A stretch of DNA of 64,000 bases. Origin: a virus. Location of the stretch: the IMG/VR virus record IMGVR_UViG_3300029915_000005; one strand, written 5' to 3'. Both the position numbers and the translations under genes were made by a program. The first letter of the stretch is position 1; each line of letters begins with the position of its first letter. The notes under the pieces are model-generated. The model saw only the letters and a list, made by a program, of their open reading frames with translations, ran no database searches and was not told the origin of the DNA. Of this stretch, positions 21-59,687 are shown in pieces.

Positions 21-908
21 ATGCTACTCCGAGAGTTTGATTTGGATATGTCAAAACTAAGTTCAGGAGATGTTAAAGAAATCAATGCTAATGTTGAATC
101 TTTATCTCTATGGATAAAAGATCATTGTTCAGAATTTTTGAAAATGAAAGGAGCAAATGATCTCGTTCGAGGTGTTAGAGAAAACTCACCAAGTATTTTT
201 ATGGGATATCCAAGAAAAAATAGAAGAAGTATTGAAGGAGAAATATCTACTGAGCTTACTAAAATAGTAGACAAATATATGCAAATGACTGGTTTTACTG
301 CTCTTCGAGGAAATAGTTTATTTTGTAATAGTGATCCTGAAATGGCTGAACCATGGGGTGAATTATATGTCATATTCCCTATAAATGGATTTACTTTTGC
401 GTATAGTAAACGACATACTTGTTGTTCAGGGGCAAGTTATATATTTCCAACAGAAGCTATTGACGAAAATTTACGCACATATGTAGACCAAATTTCTGAT
501 TTTTGGAATCGTAAAAAATACGATGTCCATGGATATTCAGAAAATATAAAAAAATTTTTAAAATATTGGTATACTCTTAATGAGTTTTATTCCAAAAAAG
601 TAAATTATTTTAATATTACTACAGTAATAAGAAATATTATTAAGACGTACAATTCTTTTACTAACGACGAAAAGGTTATGTTATCTGGTTCAGTAGTTGA
701 TCGTGCAATTATTGATCTTGGAAGAGAATTGAAACAGTTAGGAACAGATGAAATAATTGCTAAAAAATTCATAGTAAACAATAAATTGACCAATAAAAAT
801 TTGAAATGGGCTTTAGAAAATAGCTATGATGTGTGGATTCACGGAGCATATATTGCCATTGACAGAGAATTATATATACATAATTTTGATTTATTTGAAA
901 AACTATAA
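21..908 (+). CDS. ADP-ribosyltransferase-like protein (paralog family, 5 members in window)
   Basis: LVRG...GFTALRGNSLFCNS...WGELYVIFPINGF...DVWIHGAYIAI aligns with ORFs at 54076, 54701, 55400; R/S/acidic layout resembles R-S-E ARTs; N-terminus MLLREF. Confidence 0.5.
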   Translation: MLLREFDLDMSKLSSGDVKEINANVESLSLWIKDHCSEFLKMKGANDLVRGVRENSPSIFMGYPRKNRRSIEGEISTELTKIVDKYMQMTGFTALRGNSLFCNSDPEMAEPWGELYVIFPINGFTFAYSKRHTCCSGASYIFPTEAIDENLRTYVDQISDFWNRKKYDVHGYSENIKKFLKYWYTLNEFYSKKVNYFNITTVIRNIIKTYNSFTNDEKVMLSGSVVDRAIIDLGRELKQLGTDEIIAKKFIVNNKLTNKNLKWALENSYDVWIHGAYIAIDRELYIHNFDLFEKL

Positions 909-911
909 ATA
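904..911 (+). promoter_or_regulatory. T4-type late promoter TATAAATA
   Basis: Exact T4 gp55 late consensus 30 nt upstream of ATG 942. TAAATA cores also precede late genes at 19837, 29891, 32761, 37117, 39046, 41593, 42389, 45220, 48152, 49178, 54065, 60367 (+) and 7847, 29878, 52840, 54048 (-). Confidence 0.7.
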
Positions 912-941
912 CTAAAGAGAATAAATTATTGGAGTAACTAT

Positions 942-3900
942 ATGAAAAAGAAATCATTATTGGGATCAACAAAACCATACAGAAATCCAAAGTGGCTTGG
1001 CCCACAAGATAAAGTTGACAATCTTGGCCCAATTCTTGGAGCAAAACCAAAAAAATCAAAAGTTTTGAGCACAAAATTCATGGGATGCAGCAAAAATATG
1101 ACTAATAAAAATATCATTGCGGAAAATAATAAATATTCATCAAATGAAAAAGCACAACTGGCTGCTGTTCGACGAGATGGTTATGCAATTGAATGGATTG
1201 ACAATCCAAGCGAAGCTGTGCAAATGGCTGCTGTTAAACAAAATGGTTATGCAATTGGATACATCAGCAAGCCAAGCGAAGCTGTGCAAATGGCTGCTAT
1301 TCAACGAAATTATCGTGCAATTGAATACATCGACAAACCAAGCGAAGCTGTGCAAATGGCTGCTGTTCGACAAGATGGTTGGGCAATTGAATACATCGAC
1401 AATCCAAGCGAAGCTGTGCAACTTGCTGCTGTTCAACAAAATGGTCGTGCAATTCAATTCATAAAAAAGCCAACAATTAATGTCAAATTAATGGCTAAAT
1501 CAAAAGTTTTGAGCACGAAATTTCAAGGTTGTTCCATAGATCGCTCCAATAGCAATATTATTTCTGAATATAAAGATGATTATAATCCATCCAATGAAGA
1601 ATGGCTTAAAAATGAAATTGATTACGCCTATGAAATTTTTAATAATGAGGAATTTCCAAGAGTGGACAGAGAAGAAGCTCATCGAAGAATAAAGCTTTTA
1701 AATGCTGAAGCAAAAAAGAAAGGATATATTGATAAGTGGAATAAAGAAGCGCAAGAAGAAGCAGAAAAGACTCATATTAAACCAGAACTTTTAGATGTTC
1801 TTGATGATGTACGAGGCTATATTCATCACGGGAAAACTATAAACAAAGCTGATAGTAATATGTTACATAGTATGGGAATTAGTGAAGCTGTAAACAAATA
1901 TCCAATTTCTGCCAGAATAAATCCAAGATCATTAAAAAAATTATCTTTGTTGGGGCCAGAAGATAAACTTGGATTTGGAGCAGGATTAATAACAATCACT
2001 AATAAAGTATATATTGCAGCATGGCATTCAGAAATTCGTGCAAAACGTGGTTATGATATTTGTAGATTAAGTGAAGGAGCAATTAGAATTAGACAGGGTG
2101 GTTGGGATTGCGGAGATAATACAATAATTGAGTTTGGAAAATATGATGATGACACAATTTATAGACTTAAACAAATAATTCCATATGTTACTTCTCCAAC
2201 AAATAAATTTAAATTAGAGTGTGATGCTCGTGGAATAAATAATGATCATTTATATGTGACTGGAAATAAAGAATATATTATGGCAGAATTGGAAGAATGG
2301 TTAACTCCAAGACAAAAAGTTCCACTTCCAGGAAGTGTTATGGCATTTCATATGCAAGAATCAAAAGAAACTCCAAAATTAACATATAGAGAGTTTGCAA
2401 ACGCAAGCAAAGCAAAGAATAAGAAGTGCCCAACTTGTGAAAGCGAATTTAAGAATGTTCACTCAGCGAATCAAAAATATTGTTCCTCGGATTGTGAAGT
2501 GAAAGGAGAGACAGTTAAAAAATTACAAGAAGCGTTTGATAAATCAATAATAAGAAAAGCTGGATTTATTCCTTATTATTTTGATAACTTTGGAAAACTC
2601 AGAATGATGTTTGTTATGAGCAGTGATCCAACTTATGGCGGAAGCAAGTGGATGATAGCTAAAGGGCATATCGATGGAAAAGAAACAGATTTACAAGCTG
2701 CTTTACGAGAAGGAAACGAAGAGTGTGGGGTTAAGCAGTCAAATATTAAATTTATTAAACTTGGGTGGAAAGGTTTAATAAAAGGTTACACAGAATCTTC
2801 TGAAATGACAATTTATATTGGAGAAGTTAAAGACCCAGTTGATTTTGATAAACCAGGTAACGAAATAAAAGCTGTTAAATGGATAACTCCAGAAGAATTT
2901 AATTCGATTGGAAGAAATAGTCAAAAATTTATTGTTGAAGCATGTGTAAACAAAATTGGAGATAAAATGCGATTTTCTGAAATAAAAGAATCAAGAAAAT
3001 TTACAGTTTATAAAGATGGTGGTTTTTATGGCCCAAAATATGAATATGGATACATAGGAGTTCAAGACGAAGATGGGCATGATATGACTTATATTGGAAA
3101 GAAAAGTGTTCCCAATATGAATATACAGCAAGCAATATCAGCCCTTAAACAACAATTTCCAGGATGTGAAGTGAAAATTAAACTATCAAAAATATCTGAA
3201 GGTATGCTCAATGGACTAACTGTTATGTCTCTCGATCAATTTTTGGATGGCGAAAATCCAGAAGAAACTGAATTGGAAGACGAGATGTTGGGAGAAGCTG
3301 GAGAATTTGGTCTTGGTTCTAAATATCGAAACGCAAGTCATAAAGAAATGCAGGATTATCTTGATAGAACAGTATTCAAGAAGAAAAATAAACTTGATCC
3401 ATACACTATGCCATATATTCACCCAAGCAATGTAAAAAAGAATGCAGATGGTTCAGTTCCTATTATTGATGAAAATGGCGATAAGTATGATCTTGATGCT
3501 TTAAGAGATGCTATTACTAAAAGACCTAGTGGCTTACTTAAACAGAATGAGAAGATGAAACACAGTAATGGTACTGCCACAGTTTATTATAATGTTGGTT
3601 TGCCAGCATTAAAAGGATTGTCAGTTAATGAAGAAACAGGAGAATTTGTAGTTGTTGATACTTGCCCTGGTGCAGGTATTTGCAAAAATTATTGTTTCGC
3701 AATGAAAGGAAGCTATATTATGTTTCCTGGAGTTAGCATGAAGTCTGCGCAAACATTAAATTATTTATTGAATGATCCAGAAGGATTTAAAGCAGAATTA
3801 ATTGGTGAAATTTCAAAAGCAATCGCTAAATGGGATAATTTTACAGATAAAGATTTTAATAAAGGAGATGTTGAAGTTTCAATAAGGTGGCATGATTCAG

Positions 3901-4403
3901 GAGACTTCTTCAGTCCTGAATATATGGATATGGCTTGGGATGTTGCTAGAGAATTCCCAAATAATTTGTTTTATGCTTACACCAAAATAGCTGATGTTGC
4001 AAATTCAGAGGACAAGCCAGATAATTTTGTAATTAATTTTAGTGCTGGTGCATCTTCAACGCAAAGCAATTTAGTTAATATAAGTGCAGTTAAACATAGC
4101 CAAGTAGTGCCCAAAGATTTATTCTATGATTTAATTGCACGCAAAGGTATTAAGCTTATTAAAAATGCAGCAGGAGCCACACAATTTAGAGGTCCAGAAG
4201 AATGGAATGAATTAAAAGATAGATTGGCTGAAAAATATGATATAGATGTTGATACTATTTTAAGTTATGATGAATTTGTGGAAAAGAAGATGAATAAAAC
4301 GCTCGGCACTAAACCAAAATGGAATGTTACAGTTCTTCCTGGAGAAGGAGACGTTTCAGCAACAGATCCTACAGTAAAAGGTACATACTTAATGTTTCAC
4401 TAA
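942..4403 (+). CDS. Mosaic multidomain protein / putative polyprotein: DUF4116-like repeats, Cys4 zinc finger, NUDIX hydrolase, C-terminal GP88-like domain
   Basis: 5 x 22-aa NPSEAVQ(L/M)AAV repeats; CPTC..YCSSDC; Nudix box GHIDGKETDLQAALREGNEECG; TCPGAGICKNYCFA..RWHDSGDF..FYAYTK. Confidence 0.75.
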   Translation: MKKKSLLGSTKPYRNPKWLGPQDKVDNLGPILGAKPKKSKVLSTKFMGCSKNMTNKNIIAENNKYSSNEKAQLAAVRRDGYAIEWIDNPSEAVQMAAVKQNGYAIGYISKPSEAVQMAAIQRNYRAIEYIDKPSEAVQMAAVRQDGWAIEYIDNPSEAVQLAAVQQNGRAIQFIKKPTINVKLMAKSKVLSTKFQGCSIDRSNSNIISEYKDDYNPSNEEWLKNEIDYAYEIFNNEEFPRVDREEAHRRIKLLNAEAKKKGYIDKWNKEAQEEAEKTHIKPELLDVLDDVRGYIHHGKTINKADSNMLHSMGISEAVNKYPISARINPRSLKKLSLLGPEDKLGFGAGLITITNKVYIAAWHSEIRAKRGYDICRLSEGAIRIRQGGWDCGDNTIIEFGKYDDDTIYRLKQIIPYVTSPTNKFKLECDARGINNDHLYVTGNKEYIMAELEEWLTPRQKVPLPGSVMAFHMQESKETPKLTYREFANASKAKNKKCPTCESEFKNVHSANQKYCSSDCEVKGETVKKLQEAFDKSIIRKAGFIPYYFDNFGKLRMMFVMSSDPTYGGSKWMIAKGHIDGKETDLQAALREGNEECGVKQSNIKFIKLGWKGLIKGYTESSEMTIYIGEVKDPVDFDKPGNEIKAVKWITPEEFNSIGRNSQKFIVEACVNKIGDKMRFSEIKESRKFTVYKDGGFYGPKYEYGYIGVQDEDGHDMTYIGKKSVPNMNIQQAISALKQQFPGCEVKIKLSKISEGMLNGLTVMSLDQFLDGENPEETELEDEMLGEAGEFGLGSKYRNASHKEMQDYLDRTVFKKKNKLDPYTMPYIHPSNVKKNADGSVPIIDENGDKYDLDALRDAITKRPSGLLKQNEKMKHSNGTATVYYNVGLPALKGLSVNEETGEFVVVDTCPGAGICKNYCFAMKGSYIMFPGVSMKSAQTLNYLLNDPEGFKAELIGEISKAIAKWDNFTDKDFNKGDVEVSIRWHDSGDFFSPEYMDMAWDVAREFPNNLFYAYTKIADVANSEDKPDNFVINFSAGASSTQSNLVNISAVKHSQVVPKDLFYDLIARKGIKLIKNAAGATQFRGPEEWNELKDRLAEKYDIDVDTILSYDEFVEKKMNKTLGTKPKWNVTVLPGEGDVSATDPTVKGTYLMFH

Positions 4404-4411
4404 GGAAAAAT

Positions 4412-5025
4412 ATGAGACTAGATGAATATTCAAAACCAAGAGTTCCTGTAAAAGTTTTTAAAGTAGTTGATGATGAAGTTCGTACTTCATCATCTTCATT
4501 GAATATGGACCAAAAATTAGAAAAACTTGGTTGGGAATTTTTTAACGGAGGGTCTTTTGCAGCAGTATATACAAATCCTAAAAAACCATATATTCTAAAA
4601 ATCAATAAACAACCGGATAAAGCTTATGCTTATTATGTGTCAATAATAAGAAAATTGCATAATAAACATTTTCCAAAAATAAGTGATTTGAAATTTATAG
4701 AAGTTAATGGTGGTCGATATTACATATATCTTATTGAGAAATTACATAAGGCAAAATATGGAGTAGCAATAGCTAGTAGACTAGATTTTATTATGAATAA
4801 TTATGAAATTCCTCTGAAAAAATAGAGCAAGATTATTATAGATTATATGATACAAAAGCAGGATTTGAATATTTTGAAAAACATCTTGATTTATTTAAAG
4901 CTGCACAAATTATTGGAAAAAATAAAGAAACAAGTAATGTGCCAGGATTATTTTTTGATATGCATTCTGGAAATATTATGCAGAGAAAAGACGGAACAAT
5001 TGTTATAACTGATCCATACTTCTAA
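4412..5025 (+). pseudogene. Small Ser/Thr kinase-like protein, split by a 1-nt frameshift at A6 run 4817-4822
   Basis: Start MRLDEY after AAGGA. GGSFAAVY / YILK in frame 1; DMHSGNIMQRKDGTIVITDPYF* in the shifted frame. Could be a sequencing error. Confidence 0.75.
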
Positions 5026-5033: not shown

Positions 5034-5624
5034 ATGAATTTAAATGAATTATACAAACCGAAAATATCTAAAGATATTGATAATGAAATAAATTATCATT
5101 TCAATTATGGCGCTGGAAATACTCAGCAACTAAGAAATCGTCTTAAAAAATTTGGATGGATATATTTAGATGAAGGAGTTTATAGTTCAGTTTGGGGAAA
5201 TGTTAAAAAATCTTATATTCTTAAAATAAATAAAGTTCCTGATAGAGCATTCGATCATTATGTTAATATAATTAAGAAAAGTAAAAATCCTCATTTTCCA
5301 AAAATAAGTGATATGAGAGAAATAGCTATTGGACCTAAAATTTATTGTGCTTATTTAATTGAAAAATTATTTAAAATTCCTGGCCATTTTGTTGGTGATA
5401 ATTACTCAACTTTTTTCAATACAATTATTAATGCGGATCCAAAATATTCAATTTCTAAACTGTTTAATAACCATATTCCTACCATATTTAAAAAACAACC
5501 AAAACTAGTTGATGCATTATGCATAGTTGGTTCTGAACACAATAACTATTTTATTGATATGCATTCTGGAAATATTATGCAAAGAAAAGATGGAACAATT
5601 GTTATAACTGATCCTTATGCATAA
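5034..5624 (+). CDS. Small Ser/Thr kinase-like protein
   Basis: EGVYSSVW glycine loop, YILK, DMHSGNIM catalytic loop, ITDP. Confidence 0.8.
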   Translation: MNLNELYKPKISKDIDNEINYHFNYGAGNTQQLRNRLKKFGWIYLDEGVYSSVWGNVKKSYILKINKVPDRAFDHYVNIIKKSKNPHFPKISDMREIAIGPKIYCAYLIEKLFKIPGHFVGDNYSTFFNTIINADPKYSISKLFNNHIPTIFKKQPKLVDALCIVGSEHNNYFIDMHSGNIMQRKDGTIVITDPYA

Positions 5625-5648: not shown

Positions 5649-5705
5649 TTAACTTTCCATATAATAATCGATATCAATTTTTGGTTCTATTTCGTTTATT
5701 CTCAT
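5649..5705 (-). CDS. 18-aa tagged remnant MRINEIEPKIDIDYYMES
   Basis: Read by hand; N-terminus resembles kinase MNLNELYKPKISKDID. Confidence 0.35.
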   Translation of the reverse strand: MRINEIEPKIDIDYYMES

Positions 5706-5835
5706 TATTCCACCACAATGAATGATCACTCGTGTCTGGTTTACCAATGTACTCTAAATTTATTTCAACTTCTCCAGACGGTCTTTCTGGATATTCTCTA
5801 ATGAGATTCCATTTTGGAATTTCATCGATTTTCAT
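5674..5835 (-). CDS. 53-aa hypothetical protein MKIDEIPKWNLIRE...
   Basis: Read by hand; GGAG upstream; first 17 nt identical to the start of the 5822-6628 gene. Confidence 0.5.
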   Translation of the reverse strand: MKIDEIPKWNLIREYPERPSGEVEINLEYIGKPDTSDHSLWWNNENKRNRTKN

Positions 5836-6628
5836 TTCTTATTTTCTCCAGCCAATCCAGATAATTCATCATAGGATTTCGTATATACCATGCCAATGTT
5901 TTATAATCTCTAAATTTCGTTTTAAATAAATCCTCTTTCAAGCTTGGAAATGTATTGTTCACTTCTATATTCATTCCTGGAATTTTATGCTTTCTATAAT
6001 ACACCAATTCTTTGGCAGCTTTTCCAACATATTTTTTAAGAAAAGTTCCAATATTAATTAAATAATATTCATCACAATCAAAAATTAATTCATTTTTAGT
6101 AAAATTCTTGGGAAGTCCTTCTCTATATGTAGATGCCATAGATGCTGGAATTCTTCTATCATCTGTCATATGCCCCATATTTCCTGTAATTATCATTCCA
6201 TATTTGTCTGCATCTTCTCCAGCGACAGTATTACCACCAATATCAACCACTACTGGACTCCAAACAACTTTATAATTCTCTGTAGGAACAAAAATTCTAG
6301 CTTGGCCATGAAACAAATATAATTCGCTTGGAGTGATCATAGTACAAAAAGTTGGATTTTTTATGTCCAATTTTTTCATTATATCTGTAAGAGAACTTGC
6401 AAACATTCCTTTTGCGTTATATTCAAAATTTTTATTTTCATGATTGGTAACTTTGATAATAGGAGTTTCTGGTGTTGTAGCATTAAATGCTCTATATATT
6501 AAAGGATAATTTCCCATTCTATCGCAAAAACCTGCAACAATATTTGCACGGGCTCTAATATGCTGAATTTCAGCAGCATGTATAACAGCTTCTTCTAATT
6601 TCTCTTTTGTTATTTCATCGATTTTCAT
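5822..6628 (-). CDS. Divergent ADP-ribosyltransferase-like paralog
   Basis: LIYRA...PTFCT...FHGQARIFVP...NELIF..YYLI matches the family pattern; N-terminus MKIDEI..LEEA. Confidence 0.45.
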   Translation of the reverse strand: MKIDEITKEKLEEAVIHAAEIQHIRARANIVAGFCDRMGNYPLIYRAFNATTPETPIIKVTNHENKNFEYNAKGMFASSLTDIMKKLDIKNPTFCTMITPSELYLFHGQARIFVPTENYKVVWSPVVVDIGGNTVAGEDADKYGMIITGNMGHMTDDRRIPASMASTYREGLPKNFTKNELIFDCDEYYLINIGTFLKKYVGKAAKELVYYRKHKIPGMNIEVNNTFPSLKEDLFKTKFRDYKTLAWYIRNPMMNYLDWLEKIRNENR

Positions 6629-6640: not shown

Positions 6641-7231
6641 TCAGCTTGCATAAGGATCAGTTATAACAATTGTTCCGTCTTTTCTCTGCATAATATTGCC
6701 GCCATGCATGTCATTGGAAATATATGGATTTTTGATATTGTGTTTAAATTTTCCAATAATTCTGAGTGCTGTAACTAATTCTGGATTTTGTTTTAAATAA
6801 TCAAGTTGCGTATGAGATGTATTAAAAAATGTTAGTGATGAATATGGACAATCTATTATTTCACTAAAAACATTAGCTAAATGTTTCATTTCAGAACGTA
6901 CATCATCTAATTTCTCAATAAGATATATGTAATATCGACCACCATTAACTTCTATAAATTTCAAATCACTTATTTTTGGAAAATGTTTATTGTTATATTT
7001 CTTTATTAAAGATACATATTGTGCATACGCAGTATCTTGTCTATCATTAACTTTTAACACATAAGATTTTTTTGGATTTGAATATACTGTACTATAATAA
7101 CCAGCCCCTAGAAGAGTCCAACCCAATTTTTTTAATTTGCCTTCTATGGTATATTTATCAGTACTGCGATCAAACACAATTTTAGAAAATTTGGCTGGTA
7201 TTCTCGTTTTTGAATATTCGTCTAGTTTCAT
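6641..7231 (-). CDS. Small Ser/Thr kinase-like protein
   Basis: Start MKLDEY (7231); GAGYYSTVY, YVLK, DMHGGNIM, ITDP. Confidence 0.8.
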   Translation of the reverse strand: MKLDEYSKTRIPAKFSKIVFDRSTDKYTIEGKLKKLGWTLLGAGYYSTVYSNPKKSYVLKVNDRQDTAYAQYVSLIKKYNNKHFPKISDLKFIEVNGGRYYIYLIEKLDDVRSEMKHLANVFSEIIDCPYSSLTFFNTSHTQLDYLKQNPELVTALRIIGKFKHNIKNPYISNDMHGGNIMQRKDGTIVITDPYAS

Positions 7232-7841
7232 TATAACCCCCAATGTATGGATCAGTTATTACAATTGTTCCATCTTTTCTTTGCATAAAATTTTCGTCAT
7301 GCAAATCAATCCTAAAAAATGGTTTAGATTCATAGCTAACTATACGCAATGCTTTAATTAATTTTGGTTGTTTTTTGAATATTTCAGGAATTGCTCCATA
7401 CTCTTCAATTAGTGATTCTAAAGGTTTTTCTTCCATATTAAGATTAATTACAAAATTGAACATAGATGCATAATCTTCAGCAGTAGCTCTATTTGGAAAT
7501 TCCTCTAATTTTTCAATTAAATATGCATAATAACTTCTTCCTGTAATAAATATTTGTCTTCTATCACTAATTTTTGGAAAATGTGGATTTCTACTTCCTT
7601 TAATAACAGAAACATAATGATCAAATCCAGGATCTGGTATTTTATTTATTTTAAGGATATATGATTTTTTGGGATTACTCCAAACCGAACTATAAACACC
7701 GGATCCTTCCAATTTCCAACCAAATTTTTCAAGTTGATTTTTTAAATATGGAATATTAAGAGGATTATTGAAAAGATGATTCGTTATAGCATAAGTTGCG
7801 CTCTTAGATATTTTCGGTTTGTAGAATTCATTTATAAGCAT
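7182..7841 (-). CDS. Small Ser/Thr kinase-like protein
   Basis: Start MLINEFY 5 nt after TAAATA; GSGVYSSVW, DLHDENFM, ITDP. Confidence 0.8.
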   Translation of the reverse strand: MLINEFYKPKISKSATYAITNHLFNNPLNIPYLKNQLEKFGWKLEGSGVYSSVWSNPKKSYILKINKIPDPGFDHYVSVIKGSRNPHFPKISDRRQIFITGRSYYAYLIEKLEEFPNRATAEDYASMFNFVINLNMEEKPLESLIEEYGAIPEIFKKQPKLIKALRIVSYESKPFFRIDLHDENFMQRKDGTIVITDPYIGGYNETRRIFKNENTSQIF

Positions 7842-40093: not shown

Positions 40094-40744
40094 ATGGAAA
40101 GAATTCCACTATTTGAATATCAACATCAAAGTGCAGTAGCTACAGAATTACTAGAAGCAGTAGATCCTTTGACTGGTGCTAAGAAAAAAGATTTATATAT
40201 GAAAGGAATTTTCATTCAAGGTGACATAAGAAACCAAAATCAAAGAGTTTATCCAGTTTATGAGATTAAGAAAGCTGTTGATTCTATTACGGCATTAATA
40301 AATGAAAATATTTCAATTTTCGGCGAAGGGGACCATCCGGCTGATTTAAAGATTAATCTTGATCGAGTGTCTCATGTTATTACAGGTATGTGGATGGAGG
40401 GAGCTAATGGTTTTGGAAAATTAAAAGTATTACCTACTCCAATGGGAAATATTATTAAAGCTATTCTTGAAAGTGGATGTAAATTGGGAGTTAGTTCTCG
40501 TGGTTCAGGAAATGTAAATGAATCTACAGGACAAGTTTCGGATTTTGAGATTATAACAGTGGATTGTGTATGTCAGCCAAGTGCTCCAAATGCATACCCT
40601 GTTCCAATTTACGAATCTCTAAAAAATTACAAAAGAAATGGAGATAATTTATTGGAAATGGCAGCAGAGGTAAATTCAGATACTAAAGTACAAAAATATT
40701 TACAAAATGAAATAATTAGATTCATTAAGGACTTAAAATTATAA
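40094..40744 (+). CDS. gp21: Prohead protease gp21
   Basis: GIFIQG..NQNQRVYP, GEGDHP, VSH, LGVSSRGSG, PSAPNAY. Confidence 0.95.
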   Translation: MERIPLFEYQHQSAVATELLEAVDPLTGAKKKDLYMKGIFIQGDIRNQNQRVYPVYEIKKAVDSITALINENISIFGEGDHPADLKINLDRVSHVITGMWMEGANGFGKLKVLPTPMGNIIKAILESGCKLGVSSRGSGNVNESTGQVSDFEIITVDCVCQPSAPNAYPVPIYESLKNYKRNGDNLLEMAAEVNSDTKVQKYLQNEIIRFIKDLKL

Positions 40745-43515: not shown

Positions 43516-44700
43516 ATGTCAACACCATTATTGGAAAATCGTTGGGCTGATACAAAAGCTGCCCTGCTCGAAGGACTTCAAGGTAATCGTAAGTCAGTTA
43601 TGAGTACAGTCCTAGAGAACACTCGCAAATATTTGTCAGAAAGTGCAACAACTGGTTCTACTACTGCTGGCAATATTGCTACACTAAATCGCGTAATTCT
43701 GCCTGTAATTCGTCGAGTTATGCCAACAGTTATTGCCAACGAACTTGTTGGTGTTCAGCCAATGACTGGACCAGTTGGACAGATTCAGACTTTGCGTGTT
43801 CGTTATGCACAGACTGATAATGTTACTGCTCCTTATCCTTGGAATACTGGAACTACAGCAGGAGATGAAGCATTAAGCCCATTCAAGATTGCAACAGCTT
43901 ACTCTGGTAGTGCATCTACTGGTATGGCTGATTATACAGCTAATCTTGAAGGACAAGCTGGTAATAAAATTAACGTTCAAATTCTACGTCAGACAGTTGA
44001 AGCCAAGAGCCGCAAGCTATCTGCCCGCTGGACATTTGAAGCAGCACAAGATGCACAAGCAATGCACGGCATCGATGTGGAAGCTGAAATTATGGCTGCT
44101 CTTGCTCAAGAAATCACTGCTGAAATCGACCAAGAAATCATTGGTTCATTGCAAGCACTTTCTGGAACAGATCAGACTTATGATCAGTCTCTAGTTTCTG
44201 GAACTGCAACTTATGTTGGTGACGAACATGCTGCTCTAGCAGTTATGATTAATCGTGCAGCTAACTTAATTGCACAACGCACTCATCGTGGCGCTGGCAA
44301 CTGGGCAGTTGTAAGTCCAACAGCATTAACAGTATTGCAAAGTGCAACAACTTCAGCTTTTGCAAGAACCACTGAAGGAACATTTGAAGCACCAACAAAT
44401 ACAAAATTAGTTGGCACATTAAATGGATCAATGAAAATTTATGTAAATGGATATGCTCCAGATTCTCAGCCAGTGCTTGTAGGTTATAAAGGCGCTTCTG
44501 AGTCAGATGCAGCAGCTTTCTATTGTCCATATATTCCATTGATGAGTTCTGGAGTTGTTCTTGATCCAGTCACATTCGAGCCAGTAACTAGCTTCTTGAC
44601 TCGTTATGGATACGTTGAATTAACTAACAGCGCAAGTTCTTTGGGTAATGCTGCTGACTATCTCAGCAGTATCAACGTGGCAAATCTTTCATTTAGCTAA
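43516..44700 (+). CDS. gp23: Major capsid protein gp23
   Basis: GVQPMTGP, AKSRKLSARWT.EAAQD, FYCPYIPL, TRYG. Confidence 0.97.
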   Translation: MSTPLLENRWADTKAALLEGLQGNRKSVMSTVLENTRKYLSESATTGSTTAGNIATLNRVILPVIRRVMPTVIANELVGVQPMTGPVGQIQTLRVRYAQTDNVTAPYPWNTGTTAGDEALSPFKIATAYSGSASTGMADYTANLEGQAGNKINVQILRQTVEAKSRKLSARWTFEAAQDAQAMHGIDVEAEIMAALAQEITAEIDQEIIGSLQALSGTDQTYDQSLVSGTATYVGDEHAALAVMINRAANLIAQRTHRGAGNWAVVSPTALTVLQSATTSAFARTTEGTFEAPTNTKLVGTLNGSMKIYVNGYAPDSQPVLVGYKGASESDAAAFYCPYIPLMSSGVVLDPVTFEPVTSFLTRYGYVELTNSASSLGNAADYLSSINVANLSFS

Positions 44701-54054: not shown

Positions 54055-54075
54055 GGATTTTAAATAAATACTTAT

Positions 54076-54704
54076 ATGATTATTAATGAGATAATAAAAC
54101 ATGGATTAATAAATCCTGGTGATATTTCGAGAATACACGAATCTAAAAGATTTGTGGGAGTTTCTAAATATATTCAAAATCATTGCTCTGATATTCTAAA
54201 AATATATAGAGAAACAGACAATTATTTATTTCGTGGATGGGCAGGTGATAAGCCATCAATTTTTATGGGCAATCCAAGAATAGATAGACAGCCAAAAGAT
54301 GTAGCTTATAACATTCAAGTAGGAGTCGATGAAAAATTAAAAGATGCAGGATTTACTGCATTAAGAAGCAATAGTATTTTTTGTACTTGTGAAAGAAATC
54401 ACGCTGGAAAGTATGGAGCTGTATATGTGATTTTTCCAATTAATGGATTTAATTATACATGGGCTCTTGGATTATATGATTTATATATGAAGAAATATAT
54501 TGTCAAAGGGACTCTTGACTTTACTCCAAAACAGTTTGTTAAACAGTGGAATTTTAAAAAACGGGAATAGAAACATTATTAAAAAATCATATTGGAATTG
54601 AAATTTATATCAATGGGCCATATATTGCAGTTGAAAGAGATTTTCTCTATGGAAAGCCAGATACCACGAAACCATTATTTGATATTTTAGGATTGAAAAT
54701 ATGA
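54076..54704 (+). pseudogene. ADP-ribosyltransferase-like paralog, 1-nt frameshift at A6 run 54556-54561
   Basis: YLFRG..ALRSNSIFCT; shifted frame gives GIEIYINGPYIAV and ends in an ATGA overlap with the next gene. Confidence 0.65.
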
Positions 54705-55378
54705 TAATATCAGAAGTTATAAATCATGAAAAATTAACACCTGGTCAAGAGCAATGGATGTTAAGCACGCAGCGAAAAGAACTCGCAGAGTTTATGAAGA
54801 AGAATTGCTCAAATATTATTGAAACATATAATTATGAAAATAGATATTTGTATCACGGTATGCGGAGCACACATTCACATATTTTTATGGCTCAAACCAG
54901 AGAAGATAGGCTCCCAAGGGATACTCCAGAATATGTGCAAATTAAACTAGATAAAATACTGGCTTCTCAAGGATTTACTGCATTAAGAAGCAATAGTATT
55001 TTTTGTACTTCTGATTTTAAGTTTGTGCATGATTACGGTTCTCCTTTTATGATTTTTCCAATCAATGGTTTCACTTATACTTGGAATACTACTGCCAAAG
55101 ACTTGTTTCAAAGATATGAATTACGATATGATTCTTCATTGTTGACTACAGAGATGAATAAACCAGATTTAGATCCCAAAAAATTTATCAGCGATTTCAA
55201 TTTTAAAAATAATGAAGGATTATTAACAGCGTTAAGAAAAGAAAATGAAGTTTGTATTCATGGATCATATATAGGTATAGAGTGTGAATCAAATATAATT
55301 CAGATAATGTTACCTATATTGGGATTAAACCATCCTAATTTGGAAGACTATTATGGTCATTATGAAAGAAAGAGATAA
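54701..55378 (+). CDS. ADP-ribosyltransferase-like paralog
   Basis: YLYHG..ALRSNSIFCTS..YG..IFPINGF..NEVCIHG. Confidence 0.55.
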   Translation: MIISEVINHEKLTPGQEQWMLSTQRKELAEFMKKNCSNIIETYNYENRYLYHGMRSTHSHIFMAQTREDRLPRDTPEYVQIKLDKILASQGFTALRSNSIFCTSDFKFVHDYGSPFMIFPINGFTYTWNTTAKDLFQRYELRYDSSLLTTEMNKPDLDPKKFISDFNFKNNEGLLTALRKENEVCIHGSYIGIECESNIIQIMLPILGLNHPNLEDYYGHYERKR

Positions 55379-55399: not shown

Positions 55400-56110
55400 A
55401 TGAAACTTTTTGAAATCATAAATTACGAAGAATTAAAATCAGGTCAGATTCAGCGCATACTTGGTCAAAAGAGTAAATCTATTTCCAACTTTATTGAGAA
55501 TCATTGTTCTCAAATTTTAGATATATATTGGAAAGAACAAAAATATTTATATCGTGGTGTAAACTTAATTAGCACGTCACAATTTATGCTGGGAAATTCA
55601 AGAGATAACAGATCACCGAAAGATACACCAAAAGAAGTCCAATTATTAATTGATAAAAGATTGCAAGAAGCAGGATTTGAGGCCCGAAGATCAAACAGTA
55701 TTTTTTGCACTTCAAATTTATATACAGCAGAGGCATATGCAATACCATTGAGAAATGTTTTTATAATTTTTCCAATTAATGGATTTTCATTTACATATAA
55801 TTCAATGGCTAGGGATTTGTATACATATTATGGTTTAAAAAGACAATTAGATAGAACTGATTCAGTGTCTTCTTTTATGAGAGAACTAAACGATGATTCT
55901 ATTTCTTCAGATATTTTTTGCAGTAAATATGGATTTGAAAAAACTAACTTGGGATATGGTATTAGTAACTTGAGAGAAATATATATTAATGGAAAATATG
56001 TTGCTATTAAAATTAAAACAAAATTATTAGATCATGTTTTGGAAGATTTAAATCTATCAGAAAAAACAAAAGTTAACATAGATCAAGATGGTGTAGTAGC
56101 AGGAGAATAA
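55400..56110 (+). CDS. ADP-ribosyltransferase-like paralog
   Basis: YLYRG..RSNSIFCTS..A.AY..IFPINGF..REIYING. Confidence 0.55.
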   Translation: MKLFEIINYEELKSGQIQRILGQKSKSISNFIENHCSQILDIYWKEQKYLYRGVNLISTSQFMLGNSRDNRSPKDTPKEVQLLIDKRLQEAGFEARRSNSIFCTSNLYTAEAYAIPLRNVFIIFPINGFSFTYNSMARDLYTYYGLKRQLDRTDSVSSFMRELNDDSISSDIFCSKYGFEKTNLGYGISNLREIYINGKYVAIKIKTKLLDHVLEDLNLSEKTKVNIDQDGVVAGE

Positions 56111-56932: not shown

Positions 56933-58210
56933 ATGAAATTAAAAGAAATATTAAAACAACTGGAAGAATTAAAATTAGAGTCCCCATATTATATCACTTT
57001 GATTAATCAAATGCCAAAATATTTGAAATTAAAAAATAGCATTAATAATGAATTCAAAAAGTTGTATCCAAATATAAAAGAAAAATCTCTTGTAGCTAAA
57101 ATTTTCGCCATTAGAAATCCAGAGATAAGTATAATTTGCCCATACACGCAAAAGAAAAAGAAATATAATTATTCCCAAAAAAGATATGTTTGTCCAAATA
57201 CTTGCCAATGTACCAAAGATTATACTATAGAAAGATGTATGACAAAACACGGAGTTACTTCAACTAATAAATTGGCTGTAACAAAAGAAAATAAAAAGAA
57301 TGCGTATATTAGATTATGGGGTGTTGATAATCCATCTAAAGTTCCAGAAATTCAAGAACAGAAAAAGATAACAAGTATTAAAAATTGGGGTTGTGAATTT
57401 CCATTACAATCAGAAGAAATAAAAGAGAAAGGAAGAAAAACTAATTTATCAATTCGTGGTGTGGAATATGGTATGCAGGACTCAGTAATTAGAGAGAAAG
57501 CCAGAAAAACTAATTTAAAAATTAGAGGAGTGGAATATCCTTCCCAAGATAAATCAGTAAAAGATAAGATTAAACAAACAAATTTAAAAAATTGGAATTA
57601 CGAAAATACTTCTAAATCTCCTCCAATAAAACAAAAGAAAATAGAAACATCATTGCGTAATTTTAATAGAGAATATGGAACACAACGTCATTTAACTTTG
57701 GAAGCTATTGATATTATCAATGATAAAGAAAAATTTGCGAAAGTTTTATTAAAATATGGGTCAAGTGGGGCAGTTGGTATATTGGGAATTAATCAATCAT
57801 CCATTAGTAGAATACATTCAAAATATGGTTTAGCTATATTAAAAAATCGATATAGTTCTTATGAAAATGAAATTGAAACTTGGTTAAATGATAATAATAT
57901 TGATTACCTAAGAAATGATAGAATTCAAATTGGACCAAAAGAATTAGATTTTTATTTTCCTAGACATAATGTAGCAGTAGAATTTCAAGGAGATTATTGG
58001 CATATGAATCCTTCTTTATATGAAGCTGATGATTTAAATGCTCAAACAAATAAACAAGCAAAAGATATATGGAAATATGATCAAGATAAATTTAATAAAT
58101 GTAAATCTAATGGTATTAAATTAATAATTATATGGGAATCTCAATGGGAAGATAATAAAGAGCAAATAAAAGAAAATATTCTTGCTATTCTCAAAGAAAA
58201 GGAGTTATAA
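56933..58210 (+). CDS. Putative homing endonuclease (same family as 32772/52823)
   Basis: KTNL.IRGVEY repeats; SSYENEI..KELDFY..AVEFQGDYWH. Confidence 0.8.
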   Translation: MKLKEILKQLEELKLESPYYITLINQMPKYLKLKNSINNEFKKLYPNIKEKSLVAKIFAIRNPEISIICPYTQKKKKYNYSQKRYVCPNTCQCTKDYTIERCMTKHGVTSTNKLAVTKENKKNAYIRLWGVDNPSKVPEIQEQKKITSIKNWGCEFPLQSEEIKEKGRKTNLSIRGVEYGMQDSVIREKARKTNLKIRGVEYPSQDKSVKDKIKQTNLKNWNYENTSKSPPIKQKKIETSLRNFNREYGTQRHLTLEAIDIINDKEKFAKVLLKYGSSGAVGILGINQSSISRIHSKYGLAILKNRYSSYENEIETWLNDNNIDYLRNDRIQIGPKELDFYFPRHNVAVEFQGDYWHMNPSLYEADDLNAQTNKQAKDIWKYDQDKFNKCKSNGIKLIIIWESQWEDNKEQIKENILAILKEKEL

Positions 58211-58216: not shown

Positions 58217-58480
58217 ATGATTAACAAAATTGAAGTAACCAGCGAACTAATAGATGAATTGCGAGCTAAAACAAAATTGGCAACCCCTGGATTTTGGTCT
58301 TGGGAAGACTCACCGCCAACTTTATACTCAAATAGAAATTATAATATGCATGGCATGAATCTTCTTGGTAGATTGGATTTGGATTGGAATGGAAAAAATA
58401 ACTTGGATTTTATAGCAGCAACAGGACCAGAAATTATTAATGCTTTATTGGATAAAATTGAGGAACTGGAAAATAAATGA
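58217..58480 (+). CDS. Ead/Ea22-like protein
   Basis: ATPG.W...NLDFIAA..P.II.ALLDKIEELE. Confidence 0.6.
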   Translation: MINKIEVTSELIDELRAKTKLATPGFWSWEDSPPTLYSNRNYNMHGMNLLGRLDLDWNGKNNLDFIAATGPEIINALLDKIEELENK

Positions 58481-59109
58481 AATCAACAGAAATAACAGAT
58501 TATTCTAAAACAGATCGATCATTATTCAATGAGTCATTTTTATTGGAGATGCCACAACTTCATGATCCAGCAGAATATTTTGATAATTTAAATATGGAAG
58601 TTCAAGAATATATAGCTGATAATATAACTCCAATAAATTTAGGTAATAATCTATATAAAATAGAATTGGAAACAATTGTTTTTTATTGGTTTGAAAAAAA
58701 TGGCTCTCCTTCAATAATTATCGAATTAGAAAAGACACCAAGAACTTTAGTCGTGAGATTATTGGGTAAAAAAGATAAAAAAAGTCCTTATGCAGTTGAT
58801 TTATATTTGGGAATTCTAAAAGATGTTGGAAAAAATATAACAATAATGAGTGATAATCAAATAACAGAAAAAGGATTTAATGTTTGGGAGAGACTATTTG
58901 CTGCTGGTCATAAGATTACAATTTATGACAAAAATTCTCCTGGTTCTACTTGGAAAACTGTAAAGTCATTGAAAGAATTTGGTGAGGAATATAAATATAG
59001 AACATACAGATATGTTTTAAGTGAATCTAAATTTGTAAATGAAACTCGCTCATATTTTAGATTGAGACAGATTAGAGAAGAAAACAAATCTGCATTGGAG
59101 GACTACTGA
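58477..59109 (+). CDS. Tagged protein, degenerate GNAT-like
   Basis: MKSTEI..LLEMP; YAVDLY..IMSDNQITEKGFNVWERL parallels 32056. Confidence 0.45.
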   Translation: MKSTEITDYSKTDRSLFNESFLLEMPQLHDPAEYFDNLNMEVQEYIADNITPINLGNNLYKIELETIVFYWFEKNGSPSIIIELEKTPRTLVVRLLGKKDKKSPYAVDLYLGILKDVGKNITIMSDNQITEKGFNVWERLFAAGHKITIYDKNSPGSTWKTVKSLKEFGEEYKYRTYRYVLSESKFVNETRSYFRLRQIREENKSALEDY

Positions 59110-59687
59110 TGAAAAGCAAAGAATTATTTGAATCTAAATCTACAAATGTTGTAGTCTGCGATGTTCAGCCAGAATATGATAAATGGTGTAATAGAATAGT
59201 TGCCCCTCTATGCAATTTTCTTAACAATCAAACTGGAAAAATATATGTATGGTTCAATGGACAAGGAATGTCCAGCGATGAGATGGGAGATGTAAAGAAC
59301 TATTATGAAGAGAATGGTTTGGACACTGAAGTAAATGATAGAATAATTTTTATTGAAAAAGAATATGGATTTTTAAGAAACTGGATTGATGGTGGAGTTC
59401 CAGATAGAATAATTATCAAAGTTATTAGAGCAATGGTCCAAAATAAAGTTGATTACAGTAGATTGCTTAATTTAAATAGTGTTTTAAATGATATAGAGCA
59501 AGAAGAATTAAATAATTGGGAAGATGACGGAATTTATTTCCCTTATTGGTTTGAAGTAAATGAAATCAGAAATATGTCTCCGTTTTATATTTGCGGCGGC
59601 GGAAAAGATGAATGTCTTAAAGAAATTGAATTAATATGCAATGCATTAAATATTAAATATAAACGAATTAATAATTTAGTTTATTGA
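59109..59687 (+). CDS. Isochorismatase/cysteine-hydrolase-like protein
   Basis: VVVCDVQPEY, EKEYG, CGGGKDECL (D-K-C triad); N-terminus MKSKELFES. Confidence 0.55.
   Translation: MKSKELFESKSTNVVVCDVQPEYDKWCNRIVAPLCNFLNNQTGKIYVWFNGQGMSSDEMGDVKNYYEENGLDTEVNDRIIFIEKEYGFLRNWIDGGVPDRIIIKVIRAMVQNKVDYSRLLNLNSVLNDIEQEELNNWEDDGIYFPYWFEVNEIRNMSPFYICGGGKDECLKEIELICNALNIKYKRINNLVY

What the first reader, a model, noticed from the sequence alone, without database searches (positions are those of the whole stretch)
21..59687. Shared N-terminal tag on about 20 unrelated enzymes: a putative head-packaged effector arsenal
Seen N-termini: MLLREF, MRLDEY, MNLNEL, MRINEI, MKIDEI (x2), MKLDEY, MLINEF, MKICEL, MNLTEE (x2), MQLKEM, MKIFEI, MNLIEE, MIINEI, MIISEV, MKLFEI, MKSTEI, MKSKEL, internal MRFSEI, and the variant MKSFSDF..IMEA. 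The carriers are 4 kinases, 5 ART-like proteins, 2-3 GNAT-like proteins, a 2H phosphoesterase, a cysteine hydrolase and unknowns, several directly behind TAAATA late promoters. The replication and early genes lack the tag. Established: T4 internal proteins use a short N-terminal capsid-targeting sequence removed by gp21 at L/I-x-E, and the ART Alt is packaged and injected. Inference: this phage injects a panel of protein-modifying and signal-erasing enzymes at infection.
Basis: partly seen in the sequence, partly recalled or inferred. Interest (0 to 1): 0.8.

Follow-up and report, generated by a model that had tools for sequence, protein, structure and literature searches.

The report
Head-loading tags on jumbo-phage enzymes
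About a quarter of the genes in this stretch of an uncultured giant phage begin with the same five-residue tag (Met-x-Leu/Ile-x-Glu), which most likely loads kinases, ADP-ribosyltransferase-like enzymes and other proteins into the phage head for delivery with the DNA, as phage T4 does with Alt and its internal proteins; this has not been measured for this phage.

Summary
Of 66 called genes, 17 start M-x-[LI]-x-E and 2 more have Ser at position 3. The internal rate of the motif is 1.4%. After collapsing paralogues, 10 to 12 of 54 families carry it (p about 1e-9).

The window comes from an uncultured Rak2/GAP32/Atu_ph07-like jumbo myophage with a T4-type S77 prohead protease. All tagged genes lie in the late and structural blocks. 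None lies in the replication block.

The tag is kept in distant homologues while the linker behind it varies. It is disordered in an AlphaFold model. It matches the start of the small conserved protein after the portal (T4 gp67 position) and resembles T4 Alt (MELITELF).

In the cultured relative Atu_ph07, homologues of the ART-like and GNAT cargo carry an analogous 8-residue tag ending L-x-E. Of 22 proteins with that tag, 21 are in the published virion proteome, against a baseline of 131 of 714.

So head packaging is well supported by analogy. Packaging, cleavage and injection are unmeasured for this phage.

The bodies are less "unrelated" than claimed: 4 kinases, 4 ART-like proteins, 1 GNAT, and the rest unknown. 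Acb1 is not tagged. One tagged gene is a homing endonuclease, probably by chance.

This scan has reported similar tags before on other DNA. I rate it a new variant of the known T4 capsid-targeting mechanism.

The parts
21..908 (+). Tagged cargo gene, MLLREF, 295 aa, ART-like (phrog_11975 family)
   Evidence: PHROG hit at 8.5e-21. Paralogue of 54076, 54701 and 55400. Hits Atu_ph07 virion proteins gp54, gp57 and gp61-63.
942..4403 (+). Untagged 1153-aa multidomain (polyvalent-type) protein with DUF4116 repeats, NUDIX and GP88 domains. It has an internal MRFSE|I and a repeated junction ending N-I-I-[AS]-E.
   Evidence: Pfam; sequence; ATAAATA at -37. The repeats hit the tagged Atu_ph07 virion protein gp394.
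4412..4825 (+). Tagged, MRLDEY, 137 aa, N-terminal part of a kinase paralogue (truncated)
   Evidence: BLASTP to 6641-7231c, 61% identity over 111 aa; weak phrog_15752 hit.
5034..5624 (+). Tagged, MNLNEL, 196 aa, minimal protein kinase
   Evidence: phrog_15752. AF2 pLDDT 91.8. Foldseek finds 232 kinase chains at E<=1e-3. 22 of 29 homologues are tagged.
5674..5835 (-). Tagged short ORF, MKIDEI, 53 aa, possibly a decayed copy
   Evidence: An 18-codon MRINEI remnant lies inside it at 5705c.
5822..6628 (-). Tagged, MKIDEI, 268 aa, body unknown
   Evidence: No Pfam, PHROG, NCBIfam or PDB hit.
6641..7231 (-). Tagged, MKLDEY, 196 aa, kinase
   Evidence: phrog_15752 at 2.7e-16.
7182..7841 (-). Tagged, MLINEF, 219 aa, kinase. 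First gene of a minus-strand four-gene tagged operon. ATAAATA lies 12 nt before the ATG.
32056..32763 (+). Tagged, MKICEL, 235 aa, body unknown. Directly follows the 709-aa protein 29927-32056, taken from its position before the portal to be the counterpart of CBB_251.
33938..37099 (+). Portal protein, interrupted by an intein-like insert of about 465 aa with an HNH nuclease
   Evidence: phrog_213 plus HNH. Split match to the Atu_ph07 portal. Junctions GG|CLK and TKN|S.
37139..37690 (+). Tagged, MNLTEE, 183 aa, between portal and protease. ATAAATA at -23.
   Evidence: Shares a 14-residue N-terminal cassette with 38276 and 41621.
37705..37932 (+). Tagged, MQLKEM, 75 aa. Conserved small head-module protein in the position of T4 gp67/gp68.
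   Evidence: phrog_13986. 24 of 27 distinct orthologues in relatives start M-x-[LI]-x-E. Hits Atu_ph07 gp199, which is in the virion list.
37932..38279 (+). Tagged, MKIFEI, 115 aa, unknown
38276..39010 (+). Tagged, MNLIEE, 244 aa, C-terminal GNAT acetyltransferase domain
   Evidence: PF13508 at 27.5 bits against a cut-off of 27. Hits the N-terminal part of the Atu_ph07 virion protein gp63.
39111..40022 (+). Untagged 303-aa protein in the position of CBB_254 (not tested by sequence), with L-I-E at residues 9-11
40094..40744 (+). Prohead protease, Peptidase_S77 (T4 gp21 family). True start reads MERIPLFE.
   Evidence: PF03420 at 1.2e-24; phrog_207; start read.
41621..42337 (+). Tagged, MNLTEE, 238 aa, between protease and scaffold. 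ATAAATG lies at -22; the ATAAATA at -29 reported lies inside the upstream homing-endonuclease gene.
42415..43500 (+). Scaffold-like protein, L-L-E at residues 8-10
   Evidence: phrog_10922. Hits the Atu_ph07 gene annotated as the gp22 counterpart.
43516..44700 (+). Major capsid protein, N-terminus MSTPLLE|N
   Evidence: PF07068 at 6.5e-96. LLE is present at the N-terminus in all but one of the N-terminal variants listed from relatives, behind a lead of variable length.
54076..54570 (+). Tagged, MIINEI, 164 aa, ART-like. ATAAATA lies 12 nt before the ATG.
   Evidence: phrog_11975 at 1.4e-31.
54701..55378 (+). Tagged, MIISEV, 225 aa, ART-like (His replaces the conserved Arg of Y-R-G)
   Evidence: AF2 pLDDT 84.6 with residues 1-20 below 50. 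Weak ART-fold matches.
55400..56110 (+). Tagged, MKLFEI, 236 aa, ART-like
   Evidence: phrog_11975 at 4.6e-28.
56933..58210 (+). Homing endonuclease starting MKLKEI, probably a chance match
   Evidence: phrog_3339 at 2.2e-39. Paralogues 32772 and 52823c lack the motif.
58477..59109 (+). Doubtful variant, MKSTEI (Ser at position 3), 210 aa, unknown
59109..59687 (+). Doubtful variant, MKSKEL, 192 aa, unknown
19867..20361 (+). Acb1-type 2H phosphoesterase. Not tagged in this sense (MKSFSDF..IMEA). Lies in the replication block.
   Evidence: PF23474 at 9.5e-21.

Best explanation
The tag M-x-[Leu/Ile]-x-Glu followed by a hydrophobic residue is a short N-terminal address. It makes late-expressed proteins co-assemble with the scaffolding core of the prohead. 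The cargo includes four minimal protein kinases, four ADP-ribosyltransferase-like proteins, a GNAT acetyltransferase and several unknowns.

The tag copies the N-terminus of the conserved small core protein encoded just after the portal. It ends in the [LI]-x-E motif that T4-type S77 prohead proteases cut. The likely course is as follows. The tagged proteins are made late. They bind the core through the tag. The shell closes around them. The protease removes the first five residues, or another short N-terminal piece. The freed enzymes stay in the head and leave with the DNA at the next infection.

Shown here: the enrichment of the tag, its gene context, its conservation and disorder, the presence of the protease, and virion presence of tagged homologues in a cultured relative. 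Inferred: binding to the core, the exact cut site, ejection, and action on host targets.
For: 1. Enrichment: 17-19 of 66 genes and 10-12 of 54 families, against 1.4% expected. Control genomes show 1-5%.
2. Selection at the protein level: seven codons at position 3. The same residues are kept in relatives with 36-51% G+C.
3. Context: all tagged genes lie in 0-8 kb, 32-42 kb and 54-60 kb. They sit beside the portal, protease, scaffold, MCP, neck and sheath genes. None of the 27 genes in the 8-32 kb replication block is tagged (Fisher p 4.4e-6). Four tagged genes lie between portal and protease and one between protease and scaffold, where CBB and Vibrio phage 2.275.O have only the two conserved genes.
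4. Late promoter: ATAAATA, the motif proposed as the late promoter of Rak2-like phages (PMC5259590), precedes the first gene of three tagged units (7841c, 37139, 54076).
5. Protease: S77 family. [LI]-x-E also sits within the first 11 residues of the MCP, the scaffold-like protein, the CBB_254-like protein and the protease itself, here and in CBB, Atu_ph07 and T4.
6. Conservation: all 11 database homologues of the ART-like protein (29-63% identity) start M-x-[LIFV]-x-E. M1 and E5 are invariant, while residues 7-30 vary in sequence and length. 22 of 29 kinase homologues are tagged.
7. Structure: the tag lies outside the fold. Residues 1-20 of the ART-like model have pLDDT below 50.
8. Core protein: the small protein after the portal starts M-x-[LI]-x-E in 24 of 27 distinct orthologues.
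9. T4 precedents read from the T4 record: Alt MELITELF, gp67 MEGLIE, gp68 MLLIPE, gp21 ..LLIE, IPII/III MKTYQEFIAE. T4 biology is taken from PMC9026906, PMC3012670 and PMC8442874.
10. Atu_ph07: an array gp53-gp63 holds homologues of the window's ART-like and GNAT genes, all starting M-[RK]-W-x-Q-L-x-E or a close variant. Genome-wide, 21 of 22 ORFs with that tag are in the ESI-MS/MS virion list, against 131 of 714 overall. The odds ratio is about 99 and p 5.6e-14 on the 19-of-20 count.
11. Spread: in IMG/VR loci around ART-like relatives, 178 of 1484 ORFs and 27 of 554 families carry the tag, on proteins of 76 to 960 aa.
Against: - There are no virion data for this phage or for any phage that uses the 5-residue tag.
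- In Atu_ph07 the bare M-x-[LI]-x-E motif is not enriched among detected virion proteins (about 4-5 of 24). A family of roughly 100-aa proteins with that start was not detected.
- The Atu_ph07 virions were only partially purified, and the list includes replication proteins.
- Beyond position 6, the cargo tags are not significantly more like the small core protein than untagged N-termini are (p 0.21).
- The residue after Glu is hydrophobic. In the capsid and scaffold sites it is Ser, Gly or Asn. So the tag may be an address that is not cut at Glu5.
- A homing endonuclease also carries the motif.
- Kinases of the T7 0.7 type are classically early, unpackaged enzymes.
- The late promoter is inferred from a 7-mer that is common in 31% G+C DNA.
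Confidence: 0.65

Rival explanations
1. The tag directs proteins into the virion but not into the head interior. Destinations could be the tail, the baseplate or the hair-like fibres typical of this phage group. Alternatively the tagged proteins are structural parts of an inner body rather than injected enzymes.
For: The Atu_ph07 proteome does not say where in the virion a protein sits. Phages of this group carry unusual whisker or hair fibres, and phAPEC6 has an inner body. Three tagged ART-like genes lie next to the neck gene, and two doubtful ones lie just before the sheath gene.
Against: The tag ends in the prohead-protease motif and copies the N-terminus of a head-module core protein. Five tagged genes are inside the portal-to-capsid module. 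The bodies are enzyme folds, not fibre or repeat proteins.
Confidence: 0.12
2. The motif is a recognition signal for regulated proteolysis or timing. One example would be an N-terminal degron for a phage or host Clp-type protease that limits the lifetime of potentially toxic enzymes. On this view it is not a packaging signal.
For: Relatives encode ClpP and ClpX homologues (CBB_104; Atu_ph07 CDS 2). From my own knowledge, some ClpX N-terminal signals start Met-basic-hydrophobic.
Against: No Clp gene was seen in this window. Tagged homologues are stable enough to be found in virions with 3-31 peptides. The conserved Glu and the match to [LI]-x-E sites of head proteins are not explained.
Confidence: 0.07
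3. The motif reflects shared ancestry of 5' gene ends or a translation-start preference of an A+T-rich genome. It would then have no sorting function.
For: Within the kinase, ART-like and MNLTEE groups the tag is inherited with the gene. Lys, Asn and Glu codons are A-rich. One homing endonuclease has the motif.
Against: Ten to twelve families with no detectable similarity carry it. Position 3 uses seven codons. Untagged genes of the same genome, and the A+T-rich genomes CBB and Atu_ph07, do not show it above 1-3%. It persists in relatives with up to 51% G+C.
Confidence: 0.06

Closest known systems
Phage T4 Alt (ADP-ribosyltransferase packaged in the head and injected), with its short N-terminal propeptide
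   Same: It is an enzyme cargo with an ART-type body. It has a very short N-terminal piece ending [LI]-x-E followed by hydrophobic residues: MELITELF in T4 against M-x-[LI]-x-E-[ILF] here. It is processed by an S77 protease (PMC9026906).
   Different: The tag here is one residue shorter. There is no detectable sequence similarity of the bodies to Alt. There are several ART-like paralogues per genome. Processing and injection are not shown.
T4 capsid targeting sequence (CTS, MKTYQEFIAE) of internal proteins IPI-III
   Same: A portable N-terminal address on otherwise unrelated, fast-changing proteins. It is removed at [LI]-x-E by the prohead protease. T-even phages share only the CTS across a diverse set of internal proteins (PMC3012670; PMC8442874).
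   Different: The sequence differs and is half as long. The cargo here consists of enzymes of 115-295 aa rather than small basic inhibitors. The genes are spread over at least three late blocks, including insertions inside the head module, rather than one IP locus. The host clade is Rak2-like jumbo phages.
T4 gp67/gp68 prohead core proteins and their positional counterpart after the portal in Rak2-like phages (CBB_253, Atu_ph07 gp199)
   Same: Window gene 37705-37932 has the same position and a similar size. Its N-terminus carries [LI]-x-E within six residues (MEGLIE and MLLIPE in T4; MKLTELF in Atu_ph07).
   Different: No Pfam hit and no measured similarity to T4 gp67. Its role in the core is inferred from position only.
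Atu_ph07 virion proteins gp53-gp63 and other proteins starting M-[RK]-W-x-Q-L-x-E
   Same: They are homologues of the window's ART-like and GNAT bodies. They share an N-terminal tag ending L-x-E. Their presence in virions has been measured.
   Different: Their tag has eight residues and a different start. The published paper does not mention the tag. The 5-residue form is not predictive in that phage.
Polyvalent proteins of phages (Iyer et al. 2017, PMC5512222)
   Same: Both deliver ART, GNAT, NUDIX and other conflict enzymes with the DNA. The untagged 1153-aa protein 942-4403 has such a multidomain build.
   Different: Most cargo here consists of separate single-domain genes, each with its own tag, rather than one giant chain. 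Polyvalent proteins are proposed to be cut by their own MPTase domain.

Membership tests
T4-type capsid-targeted, prohead-protease-processed head cargo (IPs, Alt) | Short N-terminal sequence shared by otherwise unrelated proteins | tested here: met
   10-12 families of 54, p about 1e-9.
T4-type capsid-targeted, prohead-protease-processed head cargo (IPs, Alt) | The tag ends in the [LI]-x-E cleavage motif | tested here: met
   17 genes have L or I at position 3 and E at position 5. Two have Ser and are doubtful.
T4-type capsid-targeted, prohead-protease-processed head cargo (IPs, Alt) | The phage encodes a gp21-family (Peptidase_S77) prohead protease | tested here: met
   40094-40744, PF03420 at 1.2e-24.
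T4-type capsid-targeted, prohead-protease-processed head cargo (IPs, Alt) | Sequence similarity to the T4 CTS MKTYQEFIAE | tested here: not met
   The sequence and length differ. The nearest T4 N-termini are Alt MELITELF and gp67 MEGLIE.
T4-type capsid-targeted, prohead-protease-processed head cargo (IPs, Alt) | Late expression together with head genes | tested here: inconclusive
   Co-location with structural genes and ATAAATA motifs. No transcript data.
T4-type capsid-targeted, prohead-protease-processed head cargo (IPs, Alt) | Physical presence in the head, and removal of the tag | not testable with these tools
   Indirect evidence only: tagged homologues are in the Atu_ph07 virion proteome.
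ADP-ribosyltransferase superfamily | ART fold and an R-S-E type catalytic triad | tested here: inconclusive
   R in Y-R-G is conserved (His in 54701). The R-S-N-S motif and a late E-[VI]-x-I-H-G are conserved. Foldseek gives nothing at E<=1e-3. VIA-align gives BC2332 at Z 5.7 and Arr at Z 4.9, then cholix toxin, DarT and PARP at Z 2-3.
Protein kinase fold (T7 gp0.7-like phage kinases) | Kinase fold with a conserved catalytic Lys and Asp/Asn loop | tested here: met
   phrog_15752 up to 2.7e-16. Invariant K64, D175, N180 and D193. 232 kinase chains at E<=1e-3.
GNAT acetyltransferase | Pfam GNAT domain above the gathering score | tested here: met
   38276-39010: PF13508 at 27.5 against 27, and PF00583 at 20.7 against 20.7. 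This is marginal. 37139 and 41621 have no GNAT hit.
Acb1 anti-CBASS 2H phosphoesterase | Pfam Acb1 domain, and the tag of this finding | tested here: not met
   The domain is present (PF23474 at 9.5e-21). The N-terminus is MKSFSDF and the gene lies in the replication block. It is Acb1, but not a tagged cargo.

The most novel reading that the evidence does not exclude
A minimal address of five or six residues (M-x-[LI]-x-E-hydrophobic) is enough to load more than ten unrelated protein families into the heads of a widespread clade of uncultured Rak2-like jumbo phages. The cargo would include protein kinases, which are not known as virion cargo. The address changes by lineage (5 residues here, 8 in Atu_ph07). 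If so, the injected proteome of such phages could be read from sequence alone.
Probability: 0.5. Interest if true: 0.7.

Novelty: new variant of a known kind. Interest (0 to 1): 0.6.

Why it matters
If the tag works as proposed, it gives a sequence rule for listing the proteins a large group of uncultured giant phages deliver into the cell ahead of gene expression. Here those would be kinases, ART-like enzymes and an acetyltransferase, which are candidate host-takeover or counter-defence tools. It would extend the T4 capsid-targeting principle to a distant clade, to a much shorter tag and to new cargo classes. It would also explain an unremarked array of tagged virion proteins in Atu_ph07. A five-residue loading tag would be a convenient tool for packaging foreign proteins in phage heads. 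The idea itself is not new, and this scan has reported comparable tags on other phage DNA, so the value lies in breadth and in the link to a published virion proteome.

Tried and rejected
- No whole genome is held for this window, so no genome-wide count was possible.
- Megablast of 24 kb against the phage collection found nothing.
- CBB proteome: I fetched 150 kb of CBB to use its virion proteome, but only 3 of 250 ORFs carry the motif and none is in the virion list. CBB cannot test the tag.
- Extended similarity: I tested whether cargo tags resemble the small core protein beyond position 5, using a position matrix on residues 6-8. The result was not significant (p 0.21).
- Atu_ph07 5-mer: the bare 5-residue motif is not enriched among detected virion proteins.
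- Unknown bodies: PDB sequence searches for 54701, 5822c and 32056 found nothing. Pfam, PHROG and NCBIfam left 5822c, 32056, 37139, 37932, 41621, 58477 and 59109 unnamed.
- ART fold: Foldseek on the ART-like model gave no match at E<=1e-3.
I used the search for related loci instead.
- Prior description: the searched literature (CTS, polyvalent proteins, jumbo-phage review, Atu_ph07 paper) does not describe this tag in Rak2-like phages. The library is incomplete.
- Acb1 as variant tag: rejected, for lack of the motif and because of its position.
Full report
**What the window is.** The DNA has 29-41% G+C across the 4-kb composition windows, about 32% overall, and no tRNA genes. Its major capsid protein (43516-44700, Pfam Gp23) is 67-71% identical to those of Vibrio phage 2.275.O, GAP32, CBB and their relatives. 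It is 75-80% identical to those of 80 uncultured IMG/VR contigs. The window also holds:
- a portal gene with an intein-like HNH insert;
- a Peptidase_S77 prohead protease (40094-40744);
- a scaffold-like gene, and neck, sheath and sheath-stabiliser genes;
- a family B DNA polymerase, an RNase H-like gene (18509-19495; homologous to an Atu_ph07 gene; CBB_272 starts similarly) and several homing endonucleases.

It is therefore part of an uncultured Rak2-like jumbo myophage, distantly related to T4. No whole genome is held.

**The observation.** I called 66 genes. Seventeen start M-x-[LI]-x-E and two more start M-K-S-x-E. The same pattern occurs at 1.38% of internal positions (binomial p 3e-17).

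Many carriers are paralogues: four kinases, four phrog_11975 proteins, and the pair 37139/38276. After collapsing to 54 families, 10 carry the strict tag and 12 the tag with the Ser variants (p 3e-9 and 7e-10). Position 6 is hydrophobic in 9 of 10 families (p 4e-4). Position 3 is encoded by seven different codons.

Control genomes show no such excess. CBB has 3 of 250 ORFs. Head-module loci of 80 relatives have 50 of 990, nearly all from one conserved gene. The tag is real and far above chance.

- MRINEI is an 18-codon remnant.
- MRFSEI is internal to the 1153-aa protein 942-4403.
- I find four ART-like genes, not five.
- Only one GNAT is supported.
- No cysteine hydrolase was found.
- Acb1 (PF23474) lacks the tag.

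**The bodies.** The four kinases hit the PHROG of T7 0.7-type kinases. A model of 5034-5624 (pLDDT 91.8) matches 232 protein-kinase chains, and the catalytic Lys and Asp/Asn positions are invariant in the family.

The phrog_11975 proteins conserve Y-R-G, R-S-N-S and a late Glu. Their model (pLDDT 84.6) gives only weak structural matches, many of them ARTs: Arr, cholix toxin, DarT and PARP. "ART-like" is therefore plausible but not proven.

38276-39010 has a marginal GNAT domain. 56933-58210 is a homing endonuclease whose two paralogues lack the motif, so that match is probably chance.

**Context.** All tagged genes lie in three blocks of late or structural character.
- 0-8 kb. This includes a minus-strand operon of four tagged genes that starts 12 nt after ATAAATA.
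- 32-42 kb. One tagged gene lies before the portal, four between portal and protease, and one between protease and scaffold.
- 54-60 kb. Three ART-like genes lie ahead of the neck gene.

None of the 27 genes in the replication block at 8-32 kb is tagged (Fisher p 4.4e-6). ATAAATA is the motif proposed as the late promoter of Rak2-like phages (PMC5259590). In CBB and Vibrio phage 2.275.O the portal-to-protease interval holds only two genes. The extra tagged genes here are therefore insertions into the head module.

**The tag is a separate, conserved module.**
- All 11 database homologues of 54701-55378 (29-63% identity) begin M-x-[LIFV]-x-E. In the alignment M1 and E5 are invariant, while residues 7-30 vary in sequence and length.
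- Residues 1-20 of the model have pLDDT below 50.
- 22 of 29 kinase homologues are tagged. Of the seven without the strict tag, three are truncated fragments, one carries the motif at an internal Met, one has Thr at position 3, and two distant homologues lack it.
- Three head-module genes with different bodies share a 14-residue N-terminal cassette, MNLTEE.sKYkN.
- Around ART-like relatives in IMG/VR, 178 of 1484 ORFs and 27 of 554 families carry M-[KR]-[IL]-x-E-[ILF], on proteins of 76-960 aa.

**Link to head assembly.** The small gene right after the portal (37705-37932) sits in the position of T4 gp67/gp68. Its orthologues include CBB_253 and Atu_ph07 gp199. It starts M-x-[LI]-x-E-[LM]-[FY] in 24 of 27 distinct orthologues, across contigs of 36-51% G+C.

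The capsid protein keeps L-L-E behind a lead of variable length in all but one of the N-terminal variants listed. The scaffold-like protein, the CBB_254-like protein and the protease itself also carry [LI]-x-E within their first 11 residues. The same holds in CBB and Atu_ph07.

I read the T4 record directly. It gives gp67 MEGLIE, gp68 MLLIPE, gp21 ..LLIE, Alt MELITELF and IPII/III MKTYQEFIAE. The literature states several relevant points (PMC9026906, PMC3012670, PMC8442874):
- T4 propeptides of 7 to 65 residues are removed by gp21.
- The CTS alone loads foreign proteins into the head.
- T-even internal proteins share only the CTS.

The tag here is closest in form to Alt, a packaged and injected ART.

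**Experimental anchor in a relative.** A tblastn search with the ART-like protein found Agrobacterium phage Atu_ph07. There an array gp53-gp63 starts M-[RK]-W-x-Q-L-x-E or a close variant. These proteins are homologous to the window's four ART-like proteins. gp63 is also homologous to the GNAT domain of 38276.

I mapped the published ESI-MS/MS virion table (PMC6102473, Table S5) to ORFs by molecular weight and position. Across the whole genome, 22 ORFs carry this 8-residue tag at their true start. They belong to several unrelated size classes from 13 to 87 kDa. Twenty-one of them are in the virion list, against 131 of 714 proteins overall. On the 19-of-20 count the odds ratio is about 99 and p is 5.6e-14. 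The paper does not mention N-termini, cleavage or these gene products.

Caveats:
- The virions were only partially purified, and the list includes some replication proteins.
- The table does not separate head from tail.
- The bare 5-residue motif is not predictive in Atu_ph07 (about 4-5 of 24 detected).
- A family of small proteins with that start was not detected.

**Mechanism and confidence.** My best reading (0.65) is that the tag is a lineage-specific, very short capsid-targeting propeptide. It brings late-made enzymes into the scaffolding core and ends in the S77 protease motif. The cargo would stay in the filled head and enter the next host with the DNA.

Several steps remain inferred.
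- Whether the cut is after Glu5 is open. The residue after Glu is hydrophobic, unlike the Ser, Gly or Asn after the capsid and scaffold sites.
- Similarity to the core protein beyond position 6 is not significant.
- Ejection is not shown.
- The targets of the enzymes are unknown.

The rivals are another virion location, a degradation signal, and ancestry or translation bias. Each has less support.

**Novelty.** The principle is established for T4 and T-even phages. Other reports in this scan describe comparable tags in other uncultured phages. One of them also cites a 19-of-20 virion match in a cultured relative. I reached the Atu_ph07 result independently, before reading that note.

New relative to the literature I could search are:
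- the 5-residue form of the tag;
- its spread in Rak2-like jumbo phages;
- protein kinases as presumed cargo;
- the tagged virion array in Atu_ph07.

I rate it a new variant of a known kind, with interest 0.6.

Noticed in passing
window 33938-37099: The portal gene is about 465 aa longer than in its relatives. The insert starts GG|CLK and ends TKN|S and holds an HNH nuclease domain. It looks like an intein with a homing endonuclease. The penultimate His of typical inteins is replaced by Lys.
   Followed up: partly
window 7842-7853 (minus strand) and 54064-54075: The 18 bases before the ATG differ at only two positions upstream of two first-in-operon tagged genes, and the last 14 (AAATAAATACTTAT) are identical. 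Only five bases separate the ATAAATA box from the start codon and there is no Shine-Dalgarno sequence, which suggests leaderless or near-leaderless late mRNAs.
   Followed up: no
window 942-4403: A 1153-aa multidomain protein with DUF4116 repeats, NUDIX and GP88 domains. It has a twice-repeated junction (KSKVLSTKF.GCS ... N-I-I-[AS]-E) and an internal MRFSE|I. It could be a protease-cut polyprotein. Overall [LI]-x-E sites number 16 against about 11.5 expected, which is not a striking excess.
   Followed up: partly
window 22615-23382 and 23443-23682: Two genes built of 22-residue DUF4116 repeats with near-identical upstream sequences. Their repeats match the tagged Atu_ph07 virion protein gp394.
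   Followed up: partly
window 4412-5008 and 5650-5835 (minus strand): There are signs of gene decay in the cargo island. One is a truncated kinase (137 aa) followed by a 53-aa ORF. Another is a 53-aa MKIDEI ORF with an 18-codon MRINEI remnant inside it.
   Followed up: no
window 32772-33935, 52823-53998 (minus strand), 56933-58210, 40744-41595, 25364-26740: Five homing or HNH endonuclease genes lie in 64 kb. Three are paralogues (phrog_3339). One sits directly behind the prohead protease.
   Followed up: no
window 40042-40072: A G+C-rich inverted repeat (GTGGCGAGG ... CCTCGCCAC) lies just upstream of the protease ribosome-binding site. It is terminator-like or regulatory. The longest-ORF GTG start at 40049 falls inside it and is probably not the real start.
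   Followed up: partly
L085 and L087-L112 (Atu_ph07, MF403008): A second shared N-terminus occurs in three Atu_ph07 virion proteins: gp33, gp206 and gp594. They read M-S-..-[RK]-K-[FY]-.-N-I-[LI]-[NS]-E-S-Y, also ending [LI]-x-E. The protease starts MSTKLTE, and gp196 carries MRW plus K-L-T-E.
   Followed up: partly
window 19867-20361: An Acb1-type anti-CBASS phosphoesterase has a 17-residue N-terminal extension that contains I-M-E|A. It lies in the replication block between the RNase H-like gene and unknown genes.
   Followed up: no
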